64,000 bases of DNA, taken from Octopus sinensis (Eukaryota). This document shows, one piece after another, positions 6,246 through 56,903 of this stretch. The position numbers were made by a program, and so were the translations under genes. The DNA is taken from NCBI RefSeq assembly GCF_006345805.1, contig NC_043001.1, positions 9,424,001 through 9,488,000 of the forward strand, written 5' to 3'. The stretch's first letter is position 1. Each line of letters starts with the position of its first letter. Below the pieces are notes generated by a model, which was not told the origin of the DNA, made no database searches, and worked only from the letters and a program-made list of their open reading frames with translations.

Positions 6246-7082
6246 TATTTACAAGTTATTGCGGGTGTATGTCTCCAAGTCTCTTTAATTTTTTTCTTTT
6301 TCTTCATAGTTCACAGTTACACACGTCATGTTCCAAAACTGAATTATTACGAAATTATAGCTTCCTGCTGGAGGCTGAAATTTCTTAGCAAATTCCAAAA
6401 AGGCGTCTATTTTATTAGAAGCACTTCTAAGACATCTTCTCGAAAGCCTAATAAAGCTATAAACGAATTCACTTCTTCGCTTGACCAAGAAATTAAATCA
6501 TGATGGCTAACTCTATTGTATCCTCAGAATATATTCATCCCTCCGGACAGAAACCATGCATGAAAATATTCGACTGTATTCCTGAAAATTGAATCATAAA
6601 AACACTTTAGATTAGCAACTTCTCAGGAAATATATGATTTATTTAATACGATATGAATAGAGCATTGAGTACGCTATCTTTTGGTTTTGCTGTCATTGTC
6701 GGATATAGTTTTGTTTTAACTGATATCTTTTGGCTAATACTGGTTGTCTTTTTTTATATTTTTAAATTTTAAATTTAATTCAGAGAAACTTATACCAGTC
6801 TTTCATCTATAGAAAAATACGTAACTAGATATCTCACTGGCTTCAACGAATAAGAATTCTACTTGTTCGATCTAAGGTATTATCTGCTTATGATACTGGT
6901 CTCAAATTTTGGATAAAGCCAGCAATTTCGACAGTGGTCAGGTAGGTAAGTAGATTTCATCGATCTCAGCATTCAGCTGGTATTTATTTTATCGATGACT
7001 GGAAAAGTTGATCACAGTGGCATTTGAACCCAGAACATAAAGACAGATATAGCATTTCAGCTGACACGCAGGCTTAATATAT

Positions 7083-7674
7083 ATACTGCTGTCCACTGTG
7101 GTCTCCCTACACAAAACAAAATATTATGAGAATTGAAGCTCCCCAAAGGTCAATCACAAAAAAGATAGATGGCATGTCAGACCTTGACTACTGGGGTAGA
7201 CTAGAGAAGCTGAAATTGTATTCACTCCAACGACGCCGTGAACGCTACATTATCTGTATGATGTGGAAAATATTCCATCGGCACTGTCCGAATGATGATG
7301 GCATCACCTTCAAAATGCATCCAAGGCTTGGACCACGTGCCATCCGTCCACAACAAAAATCTAAATCGCATCACATAACGACAATACGGCACAACTATTT
7401 CACATCAATTGGACCCGCTCTCTTCAACGTTACACCAGGACACGTCAAAACAGAAACTGACCACACAAAATTCAAGAAGTCTTTGGACAAATTCCTTCAA
7501 ACAGTACCGGACAAACCACCCACACCCGGATATGTCTCCGCAAACAATAACTCTCTGCTCGAATGGGCCTTGGTGCCCAAATCCTGAACTGAAAGACTTC
7601 GCCAGGTGGTGCTATTAAGTTAGACATGGCCTGGGCCAATACTGGCCAAAACCTTTCTAAGTTATTCTAAGTTA
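7083..7674 (+). mobile_element. CR1-group LINE, 5'-truncated 3' fragment (ORF2 C-terminus, 3' UTR and tail)
   Basis: YCCPLWSP...IEAPQRSITKKI...YWGRLEKLKLYSLQRRRERYII matches the LINE ORF2 C-terminus; 3' UTR hairpin ggcca-atac-tggcc; tail (ttctaagtta)x2. Confidence 0.9.
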
Positions 7675-7688
7675 TATATATATATATA

Positions 7689-9835
7689 CTTTGATACTTT
7701 GATACTTTGATAGGTTTCGGCCATTATTGGCCCAGGCCATGTCTAACTTAATAGCACCACCTGGTGAAGTCTTTCAAGTCAGAATTTGGGCACTATGGCC
7801 CACTCAAGTAGAGAGTTATTGTTTACAGAGACATATCCGGGTGTAGGGGGTTTATCCGGGATTTCTTGAAGGAATCTGTCCAAAGACTTCTTGAACCCTA
7901 TAGGGTCAGTTTCTGTTTTAATGTGTTTTGGTGTAATGTTAAAGAGAGCGGGGCCAATTGAGGTGAAATAATTGTGCCGTATTGTTGTTATGAGATGAGA
8001 GTGCGATTTTTGTTTTGGGCGGATGGCACGGGGCCCAAGCCTTGGATGTACCTTAAAGGTGATGCCAACATCATTTGGGCAATGCTGATGGAATATTTTC
8101 CACATCATGCAGATGATGTAGCGCTCACGACGACGTTGGAGAGAATAGAGTTTTAGCTTTTCTAGTCGACCCCAATAGTCGAGGCCTGTCATGCCATCTA
8201 TCTTTTTTGTGATTGCCCTTTGAGGTGCTTCAACTTTTATGATACCTTGTATTGTGTGGGGAGACCACAGTGGACAACAGTATTCAAGGTGGGGTCGGGC
8301 AAAAGTGGAGAAGAGAAGGATAATGGTGTGGATATCTCTCGACTGGAAAGTTCTGAGAATCCAGGAACACATTCTGCGGGCCATGTCAACTTTGGTGTTT
8401 ATATGAGTGGCCCAGCTTACGTTGTTGTCCACAATTACTCCCAAGTCTCTGATGTTGTTGGACGCCGCGAGAGTTTCACCTGAAGGAAGGGAGTATGGGA
8501 GTTTCAGGGCATCCTCTTTTCCAAAGTGGATTAGCTCAAACTTATCCTCGTTCAGCAGCATATTGTTTTTTTCTGCCCATTGGATAACAGCCAGTAGATC
8601 TGACTGAAGGCATGTCCGGTCACTCGCCTCATTTATGACCTTCTGTAGCTTGGAGTCATCTGCAAAGATTTTTATGTGCTGTGCTTCATGATGTCATTAA
8701 TGTCATTAATGTAAATGATGAAAAGAAGTTGGCCCAGCACAGTGCCTTGCGGAACGCCACTACTGACTTTGGCTGGGCTGATTTTACCCCTTCAACTACA
8801 ACATGTTGAGATCTGTCTGTCAGGAAACACTTAATCCATTTCAGTAACTTTCCAGAGACACCAATGTTGGATAGTTTTTTCAATAGGATCTTGTGATCGA
8901 CCCTGTCGAAGGCCTTACTGAAATCAAGGTAGATGACATCGGTGTTGGAGCCCTCTCCCAAAGCTCTCAAAATGTCCTCAAAGTGATGCAGGAGCTGCGT
9001 TAGGCAGTCCCTTCCATTACGGAACCCATGTTGGTTGGAGATCAGCCGTCTGTTGCTTTCCAGAAATTGAGTTATTCGAGATCTCACCACCCTCTCAAAT
9101 ACCTTGATGATATGAGAGGTGAGTGAGATCGGACGGTAATTCACTGCAAGGGACTTGTTTCCCTTTTTGAAAACTGGGACAACAGACTGGGGCAGAAGGT
9201 TTTTTGGAATATAGCCAGCATCCAGTGAGTTTCTCCACAGATTAGCAAGGGGAGATGCAAGTTGGTGTCGACACACCTTCAGGACACAAGCAGGGAACCT
9301 ATCGGGGCCTACTGCTGAAGTGTGTTTTATTTCGTTTATCGCCGCTAAGACATCAGGGGCACTAAACGTTATGTCCGATATAGTGTGTTGGGGGTTGACA
9401 TCACTGATACAGCCCAGATCGGCCATATCAGGATTGCTGAAAACAGAGCAGTATTGTTTCTGCAGTATCTCGGCCATGGATTTGGCATTATCTTGGAGAG
9501 TGCCAGTTTCGTCAATTAGAGGGCCTACAGTGGAGACAGTGACCTGCGTTTCCTCGCAAATGAAAAGAACACTTTGGGGTTGAGTTTGATTTTTTCAATG
9601 GCCCACTTCTCCTCAGCTGATCTTTGGTTATTGATGAGGGTCTTCATGCATTGTTGGAGGTTATATTTTTTGGATTCAAGCAGTGCGATAGCCGTCGAAT
9701 GTGTGTGTTGCTGTTGGCAGTACTTTAGTTTGTTAATTTCTTTGTTTGTTCTTTTTATTTTTCTGATAATGGTTTTTCTGTTTTGGGGATTCTGCACTTT
9801 TTGTTCACAGGTCTTGGTGGGGAGTGTTTTGCACA
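7689..9835 (-). mobile_element. CR1-group LINE, 5'-truncated, frameshifted ORF2 with RT domain
   Basis: ORFs 8686-9477 and 7779-8561 contain NYRPISLTSHIIKVFERVV, QHGFR and YLDFSKAFDRVDH; catalytic IFADDSKL lies near 8660; tail (tatcaaag)x3. Confidence 0.93.
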
Positions 9836-11120: not shown

Positions 11121-12199
11121 CCGTGTATATAGAATAGCGTTTTCTTGTTGTGCTGCAGTGTGACGGTAGGGAGATTTAGCTGCTATTTCTAACCATGTGG
11201 TTCAGCAACATAGAGGTTCGCTCCTTTCTCGTGTGATGAATAGCTTTCAGTGTTAGAAGCCATCGATTCACTCTTCAATGCTTTATTGTGACCAATAGTT
11301 ACAGTGACGTATTTCACTGCATACGGCACCGATTAATCGAAATGAGCCAAGAGGAAGACCTTGTGCGTAGTAACTCAGCCTGTTAGAAATAGCAGCCAAG
11401 TCTCGCTCAAATTATATCCCACTCTCTAAAAAAAGAATATAAACACTTCGGGATAATTTAATCCAATTTACACTGTGTCAAAGAATGAGAGATAATCTTG
11501 GCTGGAATGGTGAGGAGCTGACCTAATTAAGACTGACGAAGAGTTGACCATAAACATTTTTGCCGAGGGAAAATTTGTCGAGAGAAATTTTAAATGACCC
11601 CATCAAAGTGTCTTTTTAACGTTTGCCTGCCATAAGCCCCATTTGGGAATCTGCTAAAAACGGTTGTTTGTTGTGTTTAAAGTGAATTTATTATGCATAT
11701 TGCATTTGCAGAGGTGTGTTTAACAATATTTAGTAGTTAAAGTTTGTCATTATTAGCTCTGGTTAATTCTAGTGGACATTTTATGTTATAAATCGCCATT
11801 TTTTAACTTCAAAAATATCGACTGTTTAGAAATTTTTTTTTTTTTTTTTGCATCTCCCATCTATATCATTCATTGATATTTTATACACATTCGCATTTGA
11901 TAGTATAGTTTCAAAAAAGCTAAAATGTTTCTTACTGCAATTGAATACAAAAGGATAATTATGCTTTATTTTTTCAGCAATCCCCATTTGGGACTTTTCA
12001 AAAAATTTATCATAATTTTCAAAGTAATCCACATGTGAAGAAAATTTAAATGTTATATATTATTTCAACTCCTAAGAAACCTGGCATAGCCAAGAAATAT
12101 GAATTAAAAAATTGGCAGTCAATGGGTTGAGCGTCAACAGCAACAAAAACAACAAAATAAATATAAAGAAAATCAACCCTAGAATCTGTTTTGAGGACA

Positions 12200-12394
12200 T
12201 GAGATTTCGTACATTATTTACATTATTTACATTAGACGGATATTTGTCCTCATCTTGTTTGTTGTTAACGCAACGCTTTGGCTGATATACACTCAAGCCT
12301 TCATCAGGTGTCTTAAGGAAATGTCGAACCTGGGTTCTCATTCCTAAAGTATTTTTCGATGTTGTTGTTGTTGTTGTTACCATTATTATTATTA

Positions 12395-19249: not shown

Positions 19250-19372
19250 GGAAGAGCGTCGGCTCGAAACGTAAAAGACTTTCTCACTTCTCGAGCGTTA
19301 AACTAATACATCTGTTTGTTGTTTACACACCCGTCTTTATATTTTGTTTTGCTTTTTTGTAAATTCCAACCA
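19250..19372 (+). mobile_element. HHR-bearing repeat family B, 5'-truncated, ending in (TA)n
   Basis: gaagagcgtcggctcgaaacgtaaaagac...ctaatacatctgtttgttg matches 29950-30145. Confidence 0.8.
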
Positions 19373-21639: not shown

Positions 21640-22252
21640 AACGGAGGCAGTTGAATGCAGATCAGGGATCAGGTTCTTATATTTAAAAGGTTCGTTCACC
21701 AAAGAAGACTTTTGATGAGATGAAGAAGTTATGGTGAAGATGCACCATTATACGACGTAGTCAAGTACTGACATCCCCAGTTCAAATGTCGTCGGACATC
21801 GGTGGAAACTGCTCCTCTTCCTGGACGGCCACATTCCGCCATTTTTGACGACGCCATCTATAAAGTGGAAGCCACCATTTTGGATCATCGCCGCATAACT
21901 ATTCGGCAACTAGCCCAAGAAGTGAAGATATATGTAGGGCCAGTGGAAAAATCATCCATGACCATTTGCAAATGCGGAAGTTGTTTGTCTACAGGATGGA
22001 TTCCCCGGATCCTCACACCTTTTCAGTAGCAGGAACGAGTCCGTTTCTTCCAGGCTCTTTTGTCAATGTGCCAAAAACACCAGGAGGACTTTTTCAGCAG
22101 ACTTATCACACAGGGTAAAACATGGGTCCATCACTATGATACTGAGACTAAAGACCAGTCGAACCAATGGAAGCATGATAACTCACCACCGCCAAAGAAG
22201 GCCTGTGTCCGTCCCACAGCAAGTAAGGTGATGCTTACAGTCTTTTGGAACA
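21640..22252 (+). pseudogene. Mariner transposase fragment (HTH region to first catalytic Asp region), copy 1
   Basis: PGRP, DHRRITIRQLA, WIPRILT, KTWVHHYDTETKDQSNQW and KVMLTVFW are mariner signatures; stops and frameshifts present. Confidence 0.9.
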
Positions 22253-22261
22253 ACCCCCCAA

Positions 22262-22321
<60 letters not shown>

Positions 22322-22687
22322 TTTACTTGTTTCAGTCATTTGACTATGGCCATGCTAAAGCACTGCCTTGAAGGGTTTCAGTCAGACGAATCGACTCCAC
22401 GGCTTACTTTTTAAAGCCTAATATCTCTTCTATTGATATCTTTTGCCGAACCACTAAGTTACGGAGAGATAAACGCACCAACACCGGTTGTCAAGCAGTC
22501 GTGGGGCAAAAACACAGACACAACGGTACACACACATAGATATACACATATATGTAAACGATGGGCTTCTTTCAGTTTTCATCTATCAAATCCACTGACA
22601 AGGCTTTAGAGAGATAAGGCGGCGAGCTGGCAGAAACGCTAGGATTCGTTTATCTTTTACAGCTGCTGAAATGGACTAAGGTGTTAT

Positions 22688-29084: not shown

Positions 29085-29570
29085 AGGGAATAATTCATAT
29101 AAAAAAACCAAGACAGTTGGTGTAGACAACAAACAGATGCATTAGTATAATGCTTGGGAAGTGAAAATGTCTTTAATGTTTCGAGCCTATGCTCTTTCAC
29201 AAAAAGGATACAGAAAGAAACAAGGAGAGAAATTGGAGAATGTGTAGTGGCTAGCGATGTATCATGGCGAATGCTGGACAAAAGGATAACACAAGAGAGC
29301 TTGGAAGAAGGGGGATAATAAAGTAGTGGTGATCCCCAAACGAAGGTGCACGTGCGTGTGTGTGTAGGTGTGAAGATGTGGGGCTGGGAAGTGGTTAGTG
29401 CTAGTGTGTGCGTGGTGGTGTGATGTGATGTGTGTGTGGTATGGTGGTGTATGGGGTAATGGTGTGTGGTATGATGGTGTTGGGAGGTGGGGGAGGCGAG
29501 AATGCCGAAAGCAAGGGTGGGATGTGGGTTAGGCTGAGGTTGGGGGTAGTGGTGGGGTATGAGGGTAGGC
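29085..29570 (-). mobile_element. Repeat family B, longer diverged copy with degenerate HHR (29170-29208)
   Basis: Minus strand gagcataggctcgaaacattaaagac followed by the shared family body. Confidence 0.75.
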
Positions 29571-29903: not shown

Positions 29904-29947
<44 letters not shown>

Positions 29948-29949
29948 AC

Positions 29950-30144
29950 CGTTAGCTCCTACACGCATTTTTTCTCTTTCCTTGTTTCTCTCCGTGTTTC
30001 TTTTCTGTGTATCTTTCTGTCGAAGAGCGTAGGCTCGAAACGTAAAAGACTTGTTCTATTTCTATTCCTGAGCGCCATACTAATACATTTGCTTGTTTGT
30101 ACTCCACCTGCCTTCGTCTTTTGTTTATTTTCGTAAACCTTCCA

Positions 30145-30146
<2 letters not shown>
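29950..30146 (+). mobile_element. Repeat family B, embedded in (TA)n
   Basis: Best-preserved copy; (TA)n on both sides. Confidence 0.88.
30012..30049 (+). ncRNA. Minimal type-I hammerhead ribozyme motif, variant core
   Basis: tcttt-CTGTCGA-a-GAGC-gtag-GCTC-GAAA-cg-TA-aaaga: 5-bp stem I, 4-bp stem II, palindromic ACGT stem III, predicted GUA site at 30044. Confidence 0.7.
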
Positions 30147-30181
<35 letters not shown>

Positions 30182-33186: not shown

Positions 33187-33789
33187 AGATATATATATAT
33201 ATATATTTATATATAGGAAATTGTGGCACATCAAGTCACCAATGTTTGCTGGAAATAGCAGTCGATAAACGTACGAAAGCTTCACTGAATGTATAGACGC
33301 AAAAAATGTGTGCGGACGGTGACCATAAAAAATGTTCGCCTTACCTCTAAGAAGAACGCCATATAAACCGACAACCTAGAATGGACAACTTAGTTCTCGA
33401 GTTTCGGACTTTACGGCATAGGTTTGTTATTGTAAATTTGATTCGTCTTCTCCAGCTAGGTTCACCTAAGACGAAATTTGAAATACCCGCAACATCAATG
33501 CCAGTATATTCGGCTTCGGCTAATAGGCCTAACCATAAACAGAAAATCAGTGAAAAAGTTTTACATAAAAACCATAAATTTTATTGCAATACACTTGTAT
33601 TATTTTCCAATTCAATAAAGCGCCTTAAAGGTAGAATTATAGATAGAAAACAGTGGCACAACAAGGCAGCAATGTTTGCTGGAAATAGCAGTTGATAACC
33701 GTACAACGGTATGCAAAGCTTTACTGAATGTATACACACACACACACAAACATATAAATATATTGGACATGGAACACTGAACTCAACCC

Positions 33790-33945
33790 GTTTTTTCTCT
33801 ATTTCCTCGTATTCCTTTCTGCCGAAGAGCATAGGCTCGAAACCTAAAAAACGTTTCCATTTGTCCCGAACGTCAAACTAATACACTTGCTTGTTGTTCC
33901 TACATCTGTCTTCGTCTTTTGTTTTCCTATAAACTTTAGCTATAT
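33790..33945 (+). mobile_element. Repeat family B with HHR motif (33815-33850)
   Basis: ttt-CTGCCGA-a-GAGC-atag-GCTC-GAAA-cc-TA-aaa; ends in a TA repeat. Confidence 0.8.
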
Positions 33946-43990: not shown

Positions 43991-44129
43991 AAGATATCAG
44001 AACCGGATGTACTTAGTCTTAGAATTACTATTAAGGAAACGAATACGATTCGAATTTATATAAGAAATATAAATATTGCTGTTATTATTGTTCGAAGAAT
44101 GGTTAGCGTTAATAATATCAATGTTATTA

Positions 44130-44200
44130 TATACCCTCCAGCCTTCATCAGGTGTCTTGGGGAAATTTCGAACCTGGGTTCTCATTCCTAAGATATTTTT
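44130..44200 (-). mobile_element. Family A inverted partial copy, truncated inside HHR stem II
   Basis: Reverse complement of the ~44590-44660 segment. Confidence 0.88.
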
Positions 44201-44482: not shown

Positions 44483-44582
44483 TGATGATGATGATGATGA
44501 TGATGAAGATGATGATGATGATGATGATGATTGATGATGGTGATAATAGTAGTAATAATAATAATAGTAATAATAATAATAA
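44269..44582. repeat. (AAT)n/(GAT)n tract internal to the family A module
   Basis: Direct inspection. Confidence 0.95.
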
Positions 44583-44766
44583 CAGCATCAAAAACACCTT
44601 AGGAATGAGATCACACGTTCGAAATTTCCCCAAGACACCTGATGAAGGCTGGAGAGTATATCAGCCGAAACGTTGTGTAAATAACAAACAAGATGAGGAC
44701 AAATATCCGTCAAATGTAAACAATGTAAATAATGAACATAATTCCTCATCTCTTAAATATAGAACT
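44583..44766 (+). mobile_element. Family A body (PLE terminal-repeat-like)
   Basis: Homologous to 12200-12360 and 54075-54112. Confidence 0.88.
44635..44678 (+). ncRNA. Minimal type-I hammerhead ribozyme, canonical core
   Basis: acac-CTGATGA-a-GGCTG-gagagtatat-CAGCC-GAAA-cg-TT-gtgt; palindromic ACGT stem III; predicted GUU site at 44674. Confidence 0.82.
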
Positions 44767-45974
44767 GTATTATCATTAGATTCGCTTTGATTATTTTACG
44801 GAAAATGAATATTTCCTTTGAAACTAATAAAGCTGGTAAAAGTCATCAGAGAAGTTGATAATATGCATGTTTTCGGGTATTGTGGTAGAATGAAAAGTGA
44901 CCCATGGCAAGGTGACCTGAATTTTTGGTTGGACGCAAAGGAACGCTTGGCATCTTGTACGGCATTTTGGCAGCAGACGTAAGGACGTTTGTCATGTTCT
45001 TCGTTATTTTGATAGGAGACAAAGGAATGGTTGGTGCAATGCCAGGCAATATTTCACAACGTAAAAAGACGATTTCTATATCGTCCGACATTTCGACAAA
45101 ACAGAAAAAAGTTGCATGAATGTTTTGGTAACAATGTGATTAAATGCAGAAGAGTTGCTGTGTTAACTTGCTCTACAACCTGACTGAAAGCAATTAGTGG
45201 AGGGCTGGACATTTTATTCAGCAATTTATCTAGCATTTAAACATATCAGAAATGATACACTGAGAGCATTTGTTCACACACTCTAACAATTATGTCATTC
45301 ACCGTATTTCTAAAGATTGAAATAATAGAAACTCGTCCTATTACTTACATTTAACATCGACAAAGATCGAAAAGGAAATAACAGATAAATAAACTGTTTA
45401 TTTCGTATTTCTGTCGTAGACTTATGAGGTTTGTGCTATTGTGTTTTTATTTAAATTTATCATTGTTAACATTTATATTAAAGCTGATAATAACAAATGA
45501 TATTTCGAAAAATAAAATTAAAGACAATACAAACGAAAGAAGACAAATTAATGAATTCTTCTTTCAGATAGGAATCTTTGTTTTACGTCTACATTTTTAT
45601 GAAGTGAAAATGCATTTTCTTAATTATTTGCCTCAAAGGCTAAGACAGGGAAATGGTAATGATGGTGGTGATGATGATGGTGATGGTGATGCGGGAGGGG
45701 GGAAGGCGGTTGGGATGATGACGACGAGGACAATGAGGTGATGATGAGAAGGATGCTGTTGTTAATGATGGTGATATGGTGACACTGACGGTGATGATGA
45801 TGATGTTGATGATGAAGACGAGAAAGAGGAGGAGGACTGTACTGTAATGGTGGTGGTGGTGGTGGCGACGATCATTATGGTGAAGGAAGATTGAGCAGTA
45901 TAGGCTGTTGTATACGTGTTGTTGTTGTTGTTGTCGTCGTCATCTCGTTGTTGTTATGGTGAAGTGGTGAGGAC

Positions 45975-48489: not shown

Positions 48490-48564
48490 AGTGTGTGTGT
48501 AAGTGTATGTGTGTTTGTGTTTGTGTATCTGTGCATTTCATCATGTTAAACCGTTAATCCCTAT

Positions 48565-48748
48565 ACATCTTTTTCTCTCTCCGTTTTTTGCGTTCTCCCT
48601 CCATATTTCCCCTCATCCCGCACTGTCGAAGGTCGTAAGCTTGAAACGTCAAAGATTTTTCCCTTCTTCCTGAGCGTCAAACAAATACACTTGCTTGTTG
48701 CTTCCTCACTCTTGTCTTCGTCTTTTTTCCTGTAAAATTTAAAGTATA
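48565..48748 (+). mobile_element. Repeat family B, diverged, with HHR remnant (48623-48655)
   Basis: CTGTCGA-a-ggtcgtaagctt-GAAA-cg-TC-aaaga plus the shared downstream body. Confidence 0.7.
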
Positions 48749-54047: not shown

Positions 54048-54078
<31 letters not shown>

Positions 54079-54112
54079 TCGAAAAATACCTTAGGAATGA
54101 GAACGCAGGTTC
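53998..54112 (+). mobile_element. Family A module start (tRNA-like head, (AAT)n, body start), cut off by a SINE
   Basis: ggcatattgcgtagtggttcgattccaagcagtgacctgaa(caa/taa)n catcgaaaaataccttaggaatgagaa. Confidence 0.85.
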
Positions 54113-54252
54113 GACTTTGCCTTTCATCCTTTGGGAGTCGATAACTTAAGTACCAGTTACGCACTGGGGTCGATGTAATCGACTTAATCCGTTTGTCTGT
54201 CCTCATTTGTCATCTCTGTGCTTAGCCCCTTGTGGGTAGTAAAGAAATAGGT
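54110..54252 (+). mobile_element. SINE family 1, 3' part
   Basis: tcgactttgcctttcatcc...gtgggtagtaaagaaatagg. Confidence 0.88.
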
Positions 54253-56335: not shown

Positions 56336-56536
56336 AGGGAATTTACAAAGAACAAACAAAACAAAAGACGAAGACGGGTGCGTAAGCAACAACCAGATGC
56401 ATTATTTTAAACCTCAGAAACTGAGAAAGTCTTTTACGTTTCGAGCCTACGCTCTTCAACAGAAAGGAACACAGAAATAAACAGGGAGAGAAAATAGAAA
56501 AAAGGTTTAGTGGCTAGTGATCAATCATGGCGAATG
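56336..56536 (-). mobile_element. Repeat family B with HHR motif (56430-56468), in (TA)n
   Basis: Minus strand cttt-CTGTTGA-a-GAGC-gtag-GCTC-GAAA-cg-TA-aaag. Confidence 0.85.
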
Positions 56537-56903
56537 ATATATATATATATATACACATACAGAGAGAGATACAAACATACACTCATATATGCATACATAT
56601 ATGAATTGTATATTATATATGAGGACGCATGGCCTAGTGTGGCACTGATCAGGCAAGGTCGATTTGATGGACGGAGTGAGTTGGTGTATATCACATACAT
56701 TAGATCACTATAAACAAGTCATATCTGCATGTCATTCGGCAAAGGCTGAACACCCATGCGTCGTATTGTTGCATCATATCATATAATAATTTAAATTTTG
56801 AATTTTATATTTTATATATTTTGTATATTATATTAATTTTATTTCTATGTTTTGGTTTATGTTTTTCACTGCTTGATTTGCCTAATAGTGGTTTTATCTC
56901 TAA

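What the first reader, a model, noticed from the sequence alone, without database searches (positions are those of the whole stretch)
29950..30146. Six-copy (TA)n-anchored family with a minimal hammerhead lacking the canonical A6
Seen: copies at 19250, 29085(-), 29950, 33790, 48565 and 56336(-) share stem II GAGC/GCTC (eroded in the 48565 copy), GAAA, a 2-nt stem III insert (usually CG, giving ACGU) and UH. The four readable cores are CUGUCGA, CUGCCGA, CUGUCGA and CUGUUGA, never CUGANGA. Known: A6 is near-invariant in HHRs, with rare natural variants. Inference: the family amplified with an A6-to-pyrimidine core, so it is either a functional variant ribozyme (possibly dimer-dependent) or a catalytically relaxed structure used for RT recognition.
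Basis: partly seen in the sequence, partly recalled or inferred. Interest (0 to 1): 0.72.

Follow-up and report, generated by a model that had tools for sequence, protein, structure and literature searches.

The report
Penelope hammerhead with fixed A6U core
This repeat is the broken-off end of a very abundant Penelope-type jumping gene whose small hammerhead RNA motif has U instead of the normally fixed A at core position 6 in about 96% of some 17,000 matching copies, which likely makes it a slowed self-cutter, though cutting is untested.

Summary
Observation confirmed and explained. The six copies are 5'-truncated terminal repeats (pLTRs) of a protein-coding Penelope-like retrotransposon (RT, CX4CxxC linker, GIY-YIG; Neptune-type); full copies read pLTR-UTR-ORF-pLTR with U6 in both hammerheads. 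Genome-wide 16,186 of 16,928 exact matches have U6; the window's C6 and the sampled A6 copies are single-copy mutations. A homologous sister family (11,713 matches) keeps A6, so U6 is likely derived. Across seven subfamily groups up to 28% apart in the flanks, 4 of 38 hammerhead columns vary against 39 of 110 flank columns (p=0.003), mainly N7 and H17, the positions hammerheads leave free. No stem covariation inside the family; one compensated stem I swap against the sister. 28 of 30 junction-spanning loci were copied through the cut site, and no significant pile-up of 5' ends there was found, nor in the A6 sister. The (TA)n anchor fits a short TA run built into the element. Best reading: a slowed, likely dimer/protein-assisted ribozyme still under selection. 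I found no natural A6U in eight searches (one key paper unavailable). The scan already reported this family on other DNA (e1-9903561, e1-8923026).

The parts
29941..30146 (+). 5'-truncated pLTR (3' end) of the Penelope-like element; young C7/A17 subfamily
   Evidence: 90% identical to the 3' pLTR of full-length copy L117; 40 best genome relatives 95-98%
30012..30049 (+). type I minimal hammerhead: stem I 30012-16/30045-49, core 30017-24, stem II 30025-36, GAAA 30037-40, palindrome ACGU 30040-43, predicted cut between 30044 and 30045
   Evidence: sequence; stems I and II in MFE and centroid
30020..30020 (+). U6, replacing the canonical A6
   Evidence: 16,186 of 16,928 genome matches; 135 of 142 copies chosen without using the core
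29910..29941 (+). (TA)n at the 5' junction (target microsatellite)
30146..30175 (+). (TA)n at the 3' end, where full-length tandem copies carry a fixed short TA run before the 5' UTR
   Evidence: 91 of 96 tail hits end in a TA-type run vs 33% background
19250..19369 (+). copy truncated inside the core (starts at G8)
29093..29558 (-). older G7-type copy, core worn; extends upstream into the CA-rich spacer between ORF and pLTR
33760..33938 (+). old copy, C at position 6 (single-copy transition)
48537..48742 (+). old copy, U6, stems eroded
56338..56551 (-). older copy, intact U6 hammerhead

Best explanation
The repeat is the terminal repeat of a Penelope-like retrotransposon whose lineage fixed A6U in its minimal hammerhead and kept the rest of the motif nearly unchanged, and the motif likely still works as a slowed self-cleaving RNA that would need a second copy (ACGU pairing) and probably the element's own protein to cut. 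Shown: element anatomy, fixation of U6, an A6 sister family, excess conservation with change concentrated at N7 and H17, copies made through the uncut site, a built-in TA run at the pLTR/UTR junction. Inferred: the element's nuclease nicks genomic (TA)n, reverse transcription primes on the UA run just 3' of the pLTR, mostly on uncut RNA, and early stops leave the abundant 100-500 bp ends seen in the window; cleavage is slow enough not to destroy most templates but still selected.
For: Full copies L112, L114, L117 are pLTR-TATATAT-UTR-ORF-pLTR-(TA)n with U6 in both repeats. ORF of L096 hits RVT_1, shows DKG, YIDD, CX4CxxC and GIY-YIG/CCHH-type motifs; relatives carry PF00078, PF26215 and often PF01541. 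U6; four public runs under four organism labels list no variant of 2% or more at 30020 but all four letters at 30021, and depth peak and loose ends bracket 30013-30052. Constraint: 4 of 38 vs 39 of 110 variable columns, Fisher p=0.0034; N7 is U74/C35/G17/A14 and N17 is A85/U52/C3/G1 of 142, which obeys the NUH rule. Stem I pair 2.4-1.4 is C-G in 124 of 141 U6-family copies and G-C in 21 of 30 sister copies (G-U in 7). A natural A6C hammerhead cuts slowly, and an A6C mutant fell from 0.30 to 3.6e-6 per min at 0.3 mM Mg but reached 0.07-0.33 at 1-10 mM (PMC3088659 section 8; PMC7151607 Table 1). The Anolis PLE hammerhead cuts only with its protein, and uncut RNA is the main insertion substrate (PMC11167929).
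Against: No cleavage data. No compensatory change within the U6 family; stem II and even loop II (GUAG) are simply invariant, which also fits a protein or DNA-level binding site. In a full pairwise scan of another hammerhead all single changes in the CUGA turn had low activity and none was rescued by a second change except the C3-G8 swap (PMC9901934, passages). No significant genomic footprint of cutting. Local fold is no more stable than shuffles (z -0.01) and stems I/II lose probability in longer context. U6 invariance at one site is not itself significant (flanks show at least 48 changes over 110 columns).
Confidence: 0.5

Rival explanations
1. The motif is catalytically dead and is kept as a folded RNA (or DNA/promoter) site that the element's protein or transcription machinery recognises.
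For: Loop II and stem II invariant without covariation; 28 of 30 junction loci copied through the cut site; hammerhead knock-outs did not affect PAc insertion in vitro (PMC11167929); sister family carries another core change, U4C, in 64 of its first 100 listed matches.
Against: The columns that changed repeatedly are N7 and H17, and G17 is not a subfamily state: the pattern expected from catalysis. A6C variants keep measurable activity (PMC7151607).
Confidence: 0.3
2. A6U is fully compensated in the cell (protein, dimer, higher free Mg or Mn), so the ribozyme is as active as canonical PLE hammerheads.
For: Metal rescue of A6C (PMC7151607); protein-assisted cleavage in PAc (PMC11167929); slight, non-significant excess of 5' ends at the cut site (about 31 vs 15 nearby, against 15 vs 14 in the A6 sister, p=0.23; 32 vs 25 at a control TA, p=0.31). 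Higher free Mg in marine invertebrate cells is recalled, not checked.
Against: No rescue of CUGA changes in PMC9901934; only about 1% of young copies start at the cut site (rough estimate).
Confidence: 0.12
3. A6U killed the ribozyme once and the remnant rides along neutrally; apparent conservation reflects a purine-rich island among slippage-prone pyrimidine flanks.
For: Flanks are low-complexity; no covariation in the family; Naiad PLEs thrive without canonical hammerheads (PMC8557442, passages).
Against: p=0.0034 for excess conservation counting substitutions only, with a tail-selected sample that favours conserved flanks; N7 changed at least three times inside the same island while 11 core positions did not change; CpG sites in the motif decay in copies but not in subfamily majorities.
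Confidence: 0.08

Closest known systems
Minimal type I hammerheads (min-HHR) in pLTRs of metazoan PLEs (Cervera and De la Pena 2014, PMC4209133; seen: main text parts 1-2 of 4, supplement file 2 part 2 of 3)
   Same: Position in the pLTR, U-rich 5' side, 4-5 bp stem I, extra base 9.1, G10.1-C11.1, palindromic CG at 15.2/16.2, UH; matches the published consensus CUGANGAH...GAAAN-NUH at every other position.
   Different: U at position 6; every published row I saw has CUGA or UUGA (their descriptor required A6); 4-bp stem II is short for a min-HHR.
Neptune-clade EN+ PLEs (PMC8557442, passages)
   Same: RT then CX2-5CxxC linker then GIY-YIG with two internal cysteines; partial tandems, 5' truncation, inverted 5' copies, (TA)n bias.
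   Different: Hammerhead core variant; clade not confirmed by a tree (Nematis shares the linker).
A6C hammerhead of phage Bcep176 (PMC3088659 section 8; PMC7151607 passages and Table 1)
   Same: Natural pyrimidine at position 6, low Mg activity, Mn rescue.
   Different: C not U; one phage sequence versus a lineage of more than 16,000 genomic copies; not a dimer-type minimal motif.
Poseidon PAc of Anolis (PMC11167929, parts 1-2 of 4)
   Same: Priming inside a tandem RNA just 3' of the pLTR, AT-rich target, uncut RNA as template, no ends at the cut site.
   Different: PAc has its ORF start inside the hammerhead and an AC-rich priming loop with a tail; here the ORF starts about 700 nt downstream and the 3' end falls in a short TA run.

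Membership tests
EN+ Penelope-like element | single ORF with telomerase-like RT and C-terminal GIY-YIG endonuclease | tested here: met
   RVT_1 E 1.4e-8; motifs read in L096, L103, L111, L089; relatives with PF00078/PF26215/PF01541. Copies carry frameshifts; three ORF fragments of L081 gave no Pfam hit.
EN+ Penelope-like element | partial tandem forming pLTRs, 5' truncation, inverted 5' copies | tested here: met
   3 of 12 long loci have both pLTRs; inverted arms in 5 of 30 junction loci
Neptune clade | CX2-5CxxC linker between RT and EN | tested here: met
   CX4CxxC in all four ORFs covering it
Neptune clade | RT groups with Neptune rather than Nematis references | not tested
PLE minimal hammerhead | stems I and II, base 9.1, G10.1-C11.1, palindromic 15.2-16.2, UH | tested here: met
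Canonical hammerhead core | C3 U4 G5 A6 N7 G8 A9 and G12 A13 A14 | tested here: not met
   U6 in 16,186 of 16,928; other core bases 132-141 of 142
Hammerhead ribozyme | covariation of stems | tested here: inconclusive
   none within the family; one C-G/G-C swap against the A6 sister; 5 of 30 double stem II mutants are compensated but look like single-copy transitions
Hammerhead ribozyme | self-cleavage after H17, as dimer | not testable with these tools
   needs in vitro assay; genomic footprint test negative also in the A6 sister
Non-LTR retrozyme / SINE | non-coding unit in tandem arrays or with its own Pol III head | tested here: not met
   copies have one 3' end, variable 5' ends and run into an RT-EN ORF

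The most novel reading that the evidence does not exclude
A6U is a selected brake: damping self-cleavage spares the uncut RNA that the element copies, the element's protein (or metal ions) supplies what A6 normally gives, and the sister lineage reached the same end independently with U4C. That would show PLE hammerheads being tuned down by selection and give the first natural, functional A6U core.
Probability: 0.2. Interest if true: 0.75.

Novelty: new variant of a known kind. Interest (0 to 1): 0.47.

Why it matters
What hammerheads do for Penelope-like elements is open (processing signal, dispensable passenger, or protein-dependent switch). Here two homologous, very successful families in one genome differ at a core base (A6 vs U6, and U4 vs C4 within the sister), so the question can be tested with natural sequences. 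It also means descriptor searches that demand CUGANGA miss a motif present in more than 16,000 copies in one animal genome.

Tried and rejected
Rfam: no hammerhead hit in the window or on 29990-30080; only microsatellite miRNA noise. A6 as family consensus or surviving ancestral subfamily: rejected; the six sampled tetraloop A6 copies with this family's flanks sit among U6 subfamilies (the middle of the tree print was cut, so L069 and L080 are placed from flank sequence only), and L075 belongs to the sister group. Cleavage footprint: 5' ends at the cut site versus a control TA and versus the A6 sister, tallied by eye from the first 100 listed of 245, 110 and 215 matches after dropping indel and point variants (about 54, 42 and 70 rows); differences not significant, TA microhomology confounds, and the positive control was itself negative, so the test does not discriminate. 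Other U6 families with different stem II: 30 matches, 13 of the 20 fetched have this family's flanks and most of the rest lack stem I; no second family seen. Metagenome scan: 0 matches. No RNA holder listed; runs only guessed to be RNA have contigs over UTR and ORF but contigs cannot show ends or expression. Downstream GUCUUUUG pairing with the 3' strand of stem I appears in the alignment fold but may be compositional; not pursued. Unconstrained cofolding of two copies did not give the ACGU dimer. My regular expression for the linker missed through wrong spacing; the motif is read. Lunse et al. 2017 could not be read.

Full report
Observation. The window holds six copies of a roughly 200-base repeat at the stated places. 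The copy at 29941-30146 reads as a type I minimal hammerhead: stem I 30012-16/30045-49, C3 at 30017, U at position 6 (30020), an extra A at 9.1, stem II GAGC/GCUC with loop GUAG, GAAA, the palindrome ACGU and a predicted cut after A17 at 30044 (stems I and II in the predicted fold, though no more stable than shuffles). Rfam does not detect it.

What it is. The 40 best relatives in the 2.72-Gb genome are 95-98% identical, share one 3' end next to a microsatellite and have variable 5' ends. Some extend upstream; L017 runs into an endonuclease-coding region. Searching with that region gave long copies, most with the same tail. L096 has a long frame with DKG, YIDD, a CX4CxxC linker and a GIY-YIG domain with two internal cysteines, a Pfam RVT_1 hit and relatives with the same domain set. 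Of 12 long loci, three are pLTR-TATATAT-5'UTR-ORF-pLTR-(TA)n, about 4.3-4.5 kb between hammerheads, with U6 in both. This is an EN+ Penelope-like element; the linker and (TA)n bias point to the Neptune clade as described in PMC8557442 (passages), which I did not confirm by a tree. Earlier scan notes call the genome octopus-like; I did not test that.

Is U6 fixed? The pattern with free positions 6 and 7 has 16,928 exact matches, 0 for the reversed control; 742 have another letter at 6, and of the first 100 listed I counted 66 C, 29 A, 5 G. So about 96% U, 3% C, 1% A. In 142 copies collected without using the core (tail-, ORF- and junction-selected loci plus incidental hits spanning both flanks; centre hits of L001-L080 and loci L124-L131 left out) position 6 is U 135, C 2, A 2, G 1, gap 2; one A is a sister-family copy. 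Contigs of four public runs under four coded organism labels show no listed variant at 30020 and all four letters at 30021; how distinct these organisms are is unknown.

Direction. Incidental hits revealed homologous families with A6, the same stem II and a related tail: 11,713 exact matches, 64 of the first 100 with U4C. A midpoint-rooted tree of 228 copies separates these from the U6 copies, and tetraloop A6 copies fall singly among U6 subfamilies (print partly cut). With A6 the general state in published PLE motifs, U6 is most simply one derived change on the stem lineage (inference; no outgroup root).

Constraint. I grouped 137 of the 142 copies into seven groups (by clustering on flanks, older groups joined by eye; five left out: deletion copies, outliers, the sister copy). 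Group majorities differ by up to 28% in the flanks but at most 11% in the motif; 4 of 38 motif columns vary (end of stem I, N7, first loop base in the oldest group, N17) against 39 of 110 flank columns, p=0.0034. N7 takes all four letters and N17 is A or U, the two positions that hammerhead chemistry leaves free (established numbering and NUH rule; PMC11014351 passage). Against the sister, stem I pair 4 is swapped C-G to G-C. Against this reading: no covariation within the family, an invariant loop II that catalysis alone would not explain, and weak folding in context.

Does it cut? Not shown. Of 30 loci that span the pLTR/UTR junction (three from one tandem array), 28 continue 5' through the cut site and none starts at it. 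Among 98 tail-selected hits 5' ends are spread. Genome-wide listings gave about 31 ends at the cut site versus 15 just upstream, compared with 32 versus 25 at a control TA and 15 versus 14 in the A6 sister; p=0.31 and 0.23 (by-eye tallies of the first 100 rows). So most copies came from uncut RNA in both families, as reported for PAc (PMC11167929). Published data put changes at position 6 at low but not always zero activity: natural A6C cuts below 0.1 per min (PMC3088659 section 8), is rescued by Mn or higher Mg (PMC7151607), and CUGA changes were not rescued by second mutations (PMC9901934). I found no measurement for A6U.

Mechanism. Shown steps: anatomy, fixation, constraint, uncut templates, 3' ends at a TA-type run in 91 of 96 hits versus 33% background, and a fixed short TA run at the internal junction (188 matches). 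Inferred steps: nicking of genomic (TA)n, priming on the RNA's UA run after the pLTR, early termination giving short ends; slow dimer- or protein-assisted cleavage as the reason the motif is kept (0.5), versus a dead binding structure (0.3), a fully compensated ribozyme (0.12) or a neutral remnant (0.08).

Novelty. The element class, minimal hammerhead and microsatellite targeting are known. A lineage-wide A6U was not found in eight literature searches nor in the supplement rows of PMC4209133 that I read (file 1 not searchable). Lunse et al. 2017, the largest survey of PLE hammerhead variants, was not available, and Figures S6-S7 of PMC3088659 and the data of PMC9901934 were not seen; any of these could hold a precedent. 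Also consulted without bearing: bioRxiv 10.64898/2026.07.22.740005 (part 1 of 5), PMC6765202, PMC11662667, PMC6155905, bioRxiv 10.64898/2026.07.27.740603 (passages). The scan's earlier notes e1-9903561, e1-8923026 and e1-9522096 describe the same family from other windows; they agree but are not independent support.

Verdict. Real, a new variant of a known kind; interest 0.47.

Noticed in passing
G000-wide; L252-L281: Sister pLTR family with A6 and a 3-nt loop II, 11,713 exact matches; 64 of the first 100 have U4C, a second large-scale core deviation; one U4C subfamily also has a U-U mismatch in stem I (7 of 30).
   Followed up: partly
window 44581-44770 (+), 12185-12366 (-), 44129-44200 (-), 54077-54114 (+): Unrelated repeat family with a canonical CUGAUGA minimal hammerhead (C3 at 44639), sitting in (AAT)n runs; 44129-44200 and 44581-44770 form an inverted pair.
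   Followed up: partly
L142-L144 (G000:C5 121.298 Mb), L159: Tandem arrays of about 510 bases made of pLTR plus part of the 5' UTR of the U6 family, a retrozyme-like arrangement that would place U6 hammerheads in tandem.
   Followed up: no
L140, L146, L152, L156, L158: Inverted 5' arms typical of PLE insertions; in four of the five the forward arm begins near the same point about 70-90 bases upstream of the hammerhead.
   Followed up: no
G000:C3:48592804-48592946: Three 56-base tandem units that begin at or next to the predicted cut site.
   Followed up: no
window 7078-9594: LINE-type reverse transcriptase fragments on both strands (7782-9594 minus, 7078-7584 plus), apparently an inverted arrangement.
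   Followed up: no
window 22030-22368 (+): Fragment resembling a Mariner/Tc1 transposase (label from recall of the motif, no search run).
   Followed up: no
L081:9275-9959 (-): Restriction-like-endonuclease LINE 3' fragment (label from recall, no search run).
   Followed up: no
L287, L293, L301: Small unrelated repeat with CUGUUGAAG...CGAAACGUG but G at 17 and no stem I; probably not a hammerhead.
   Followed up: partly
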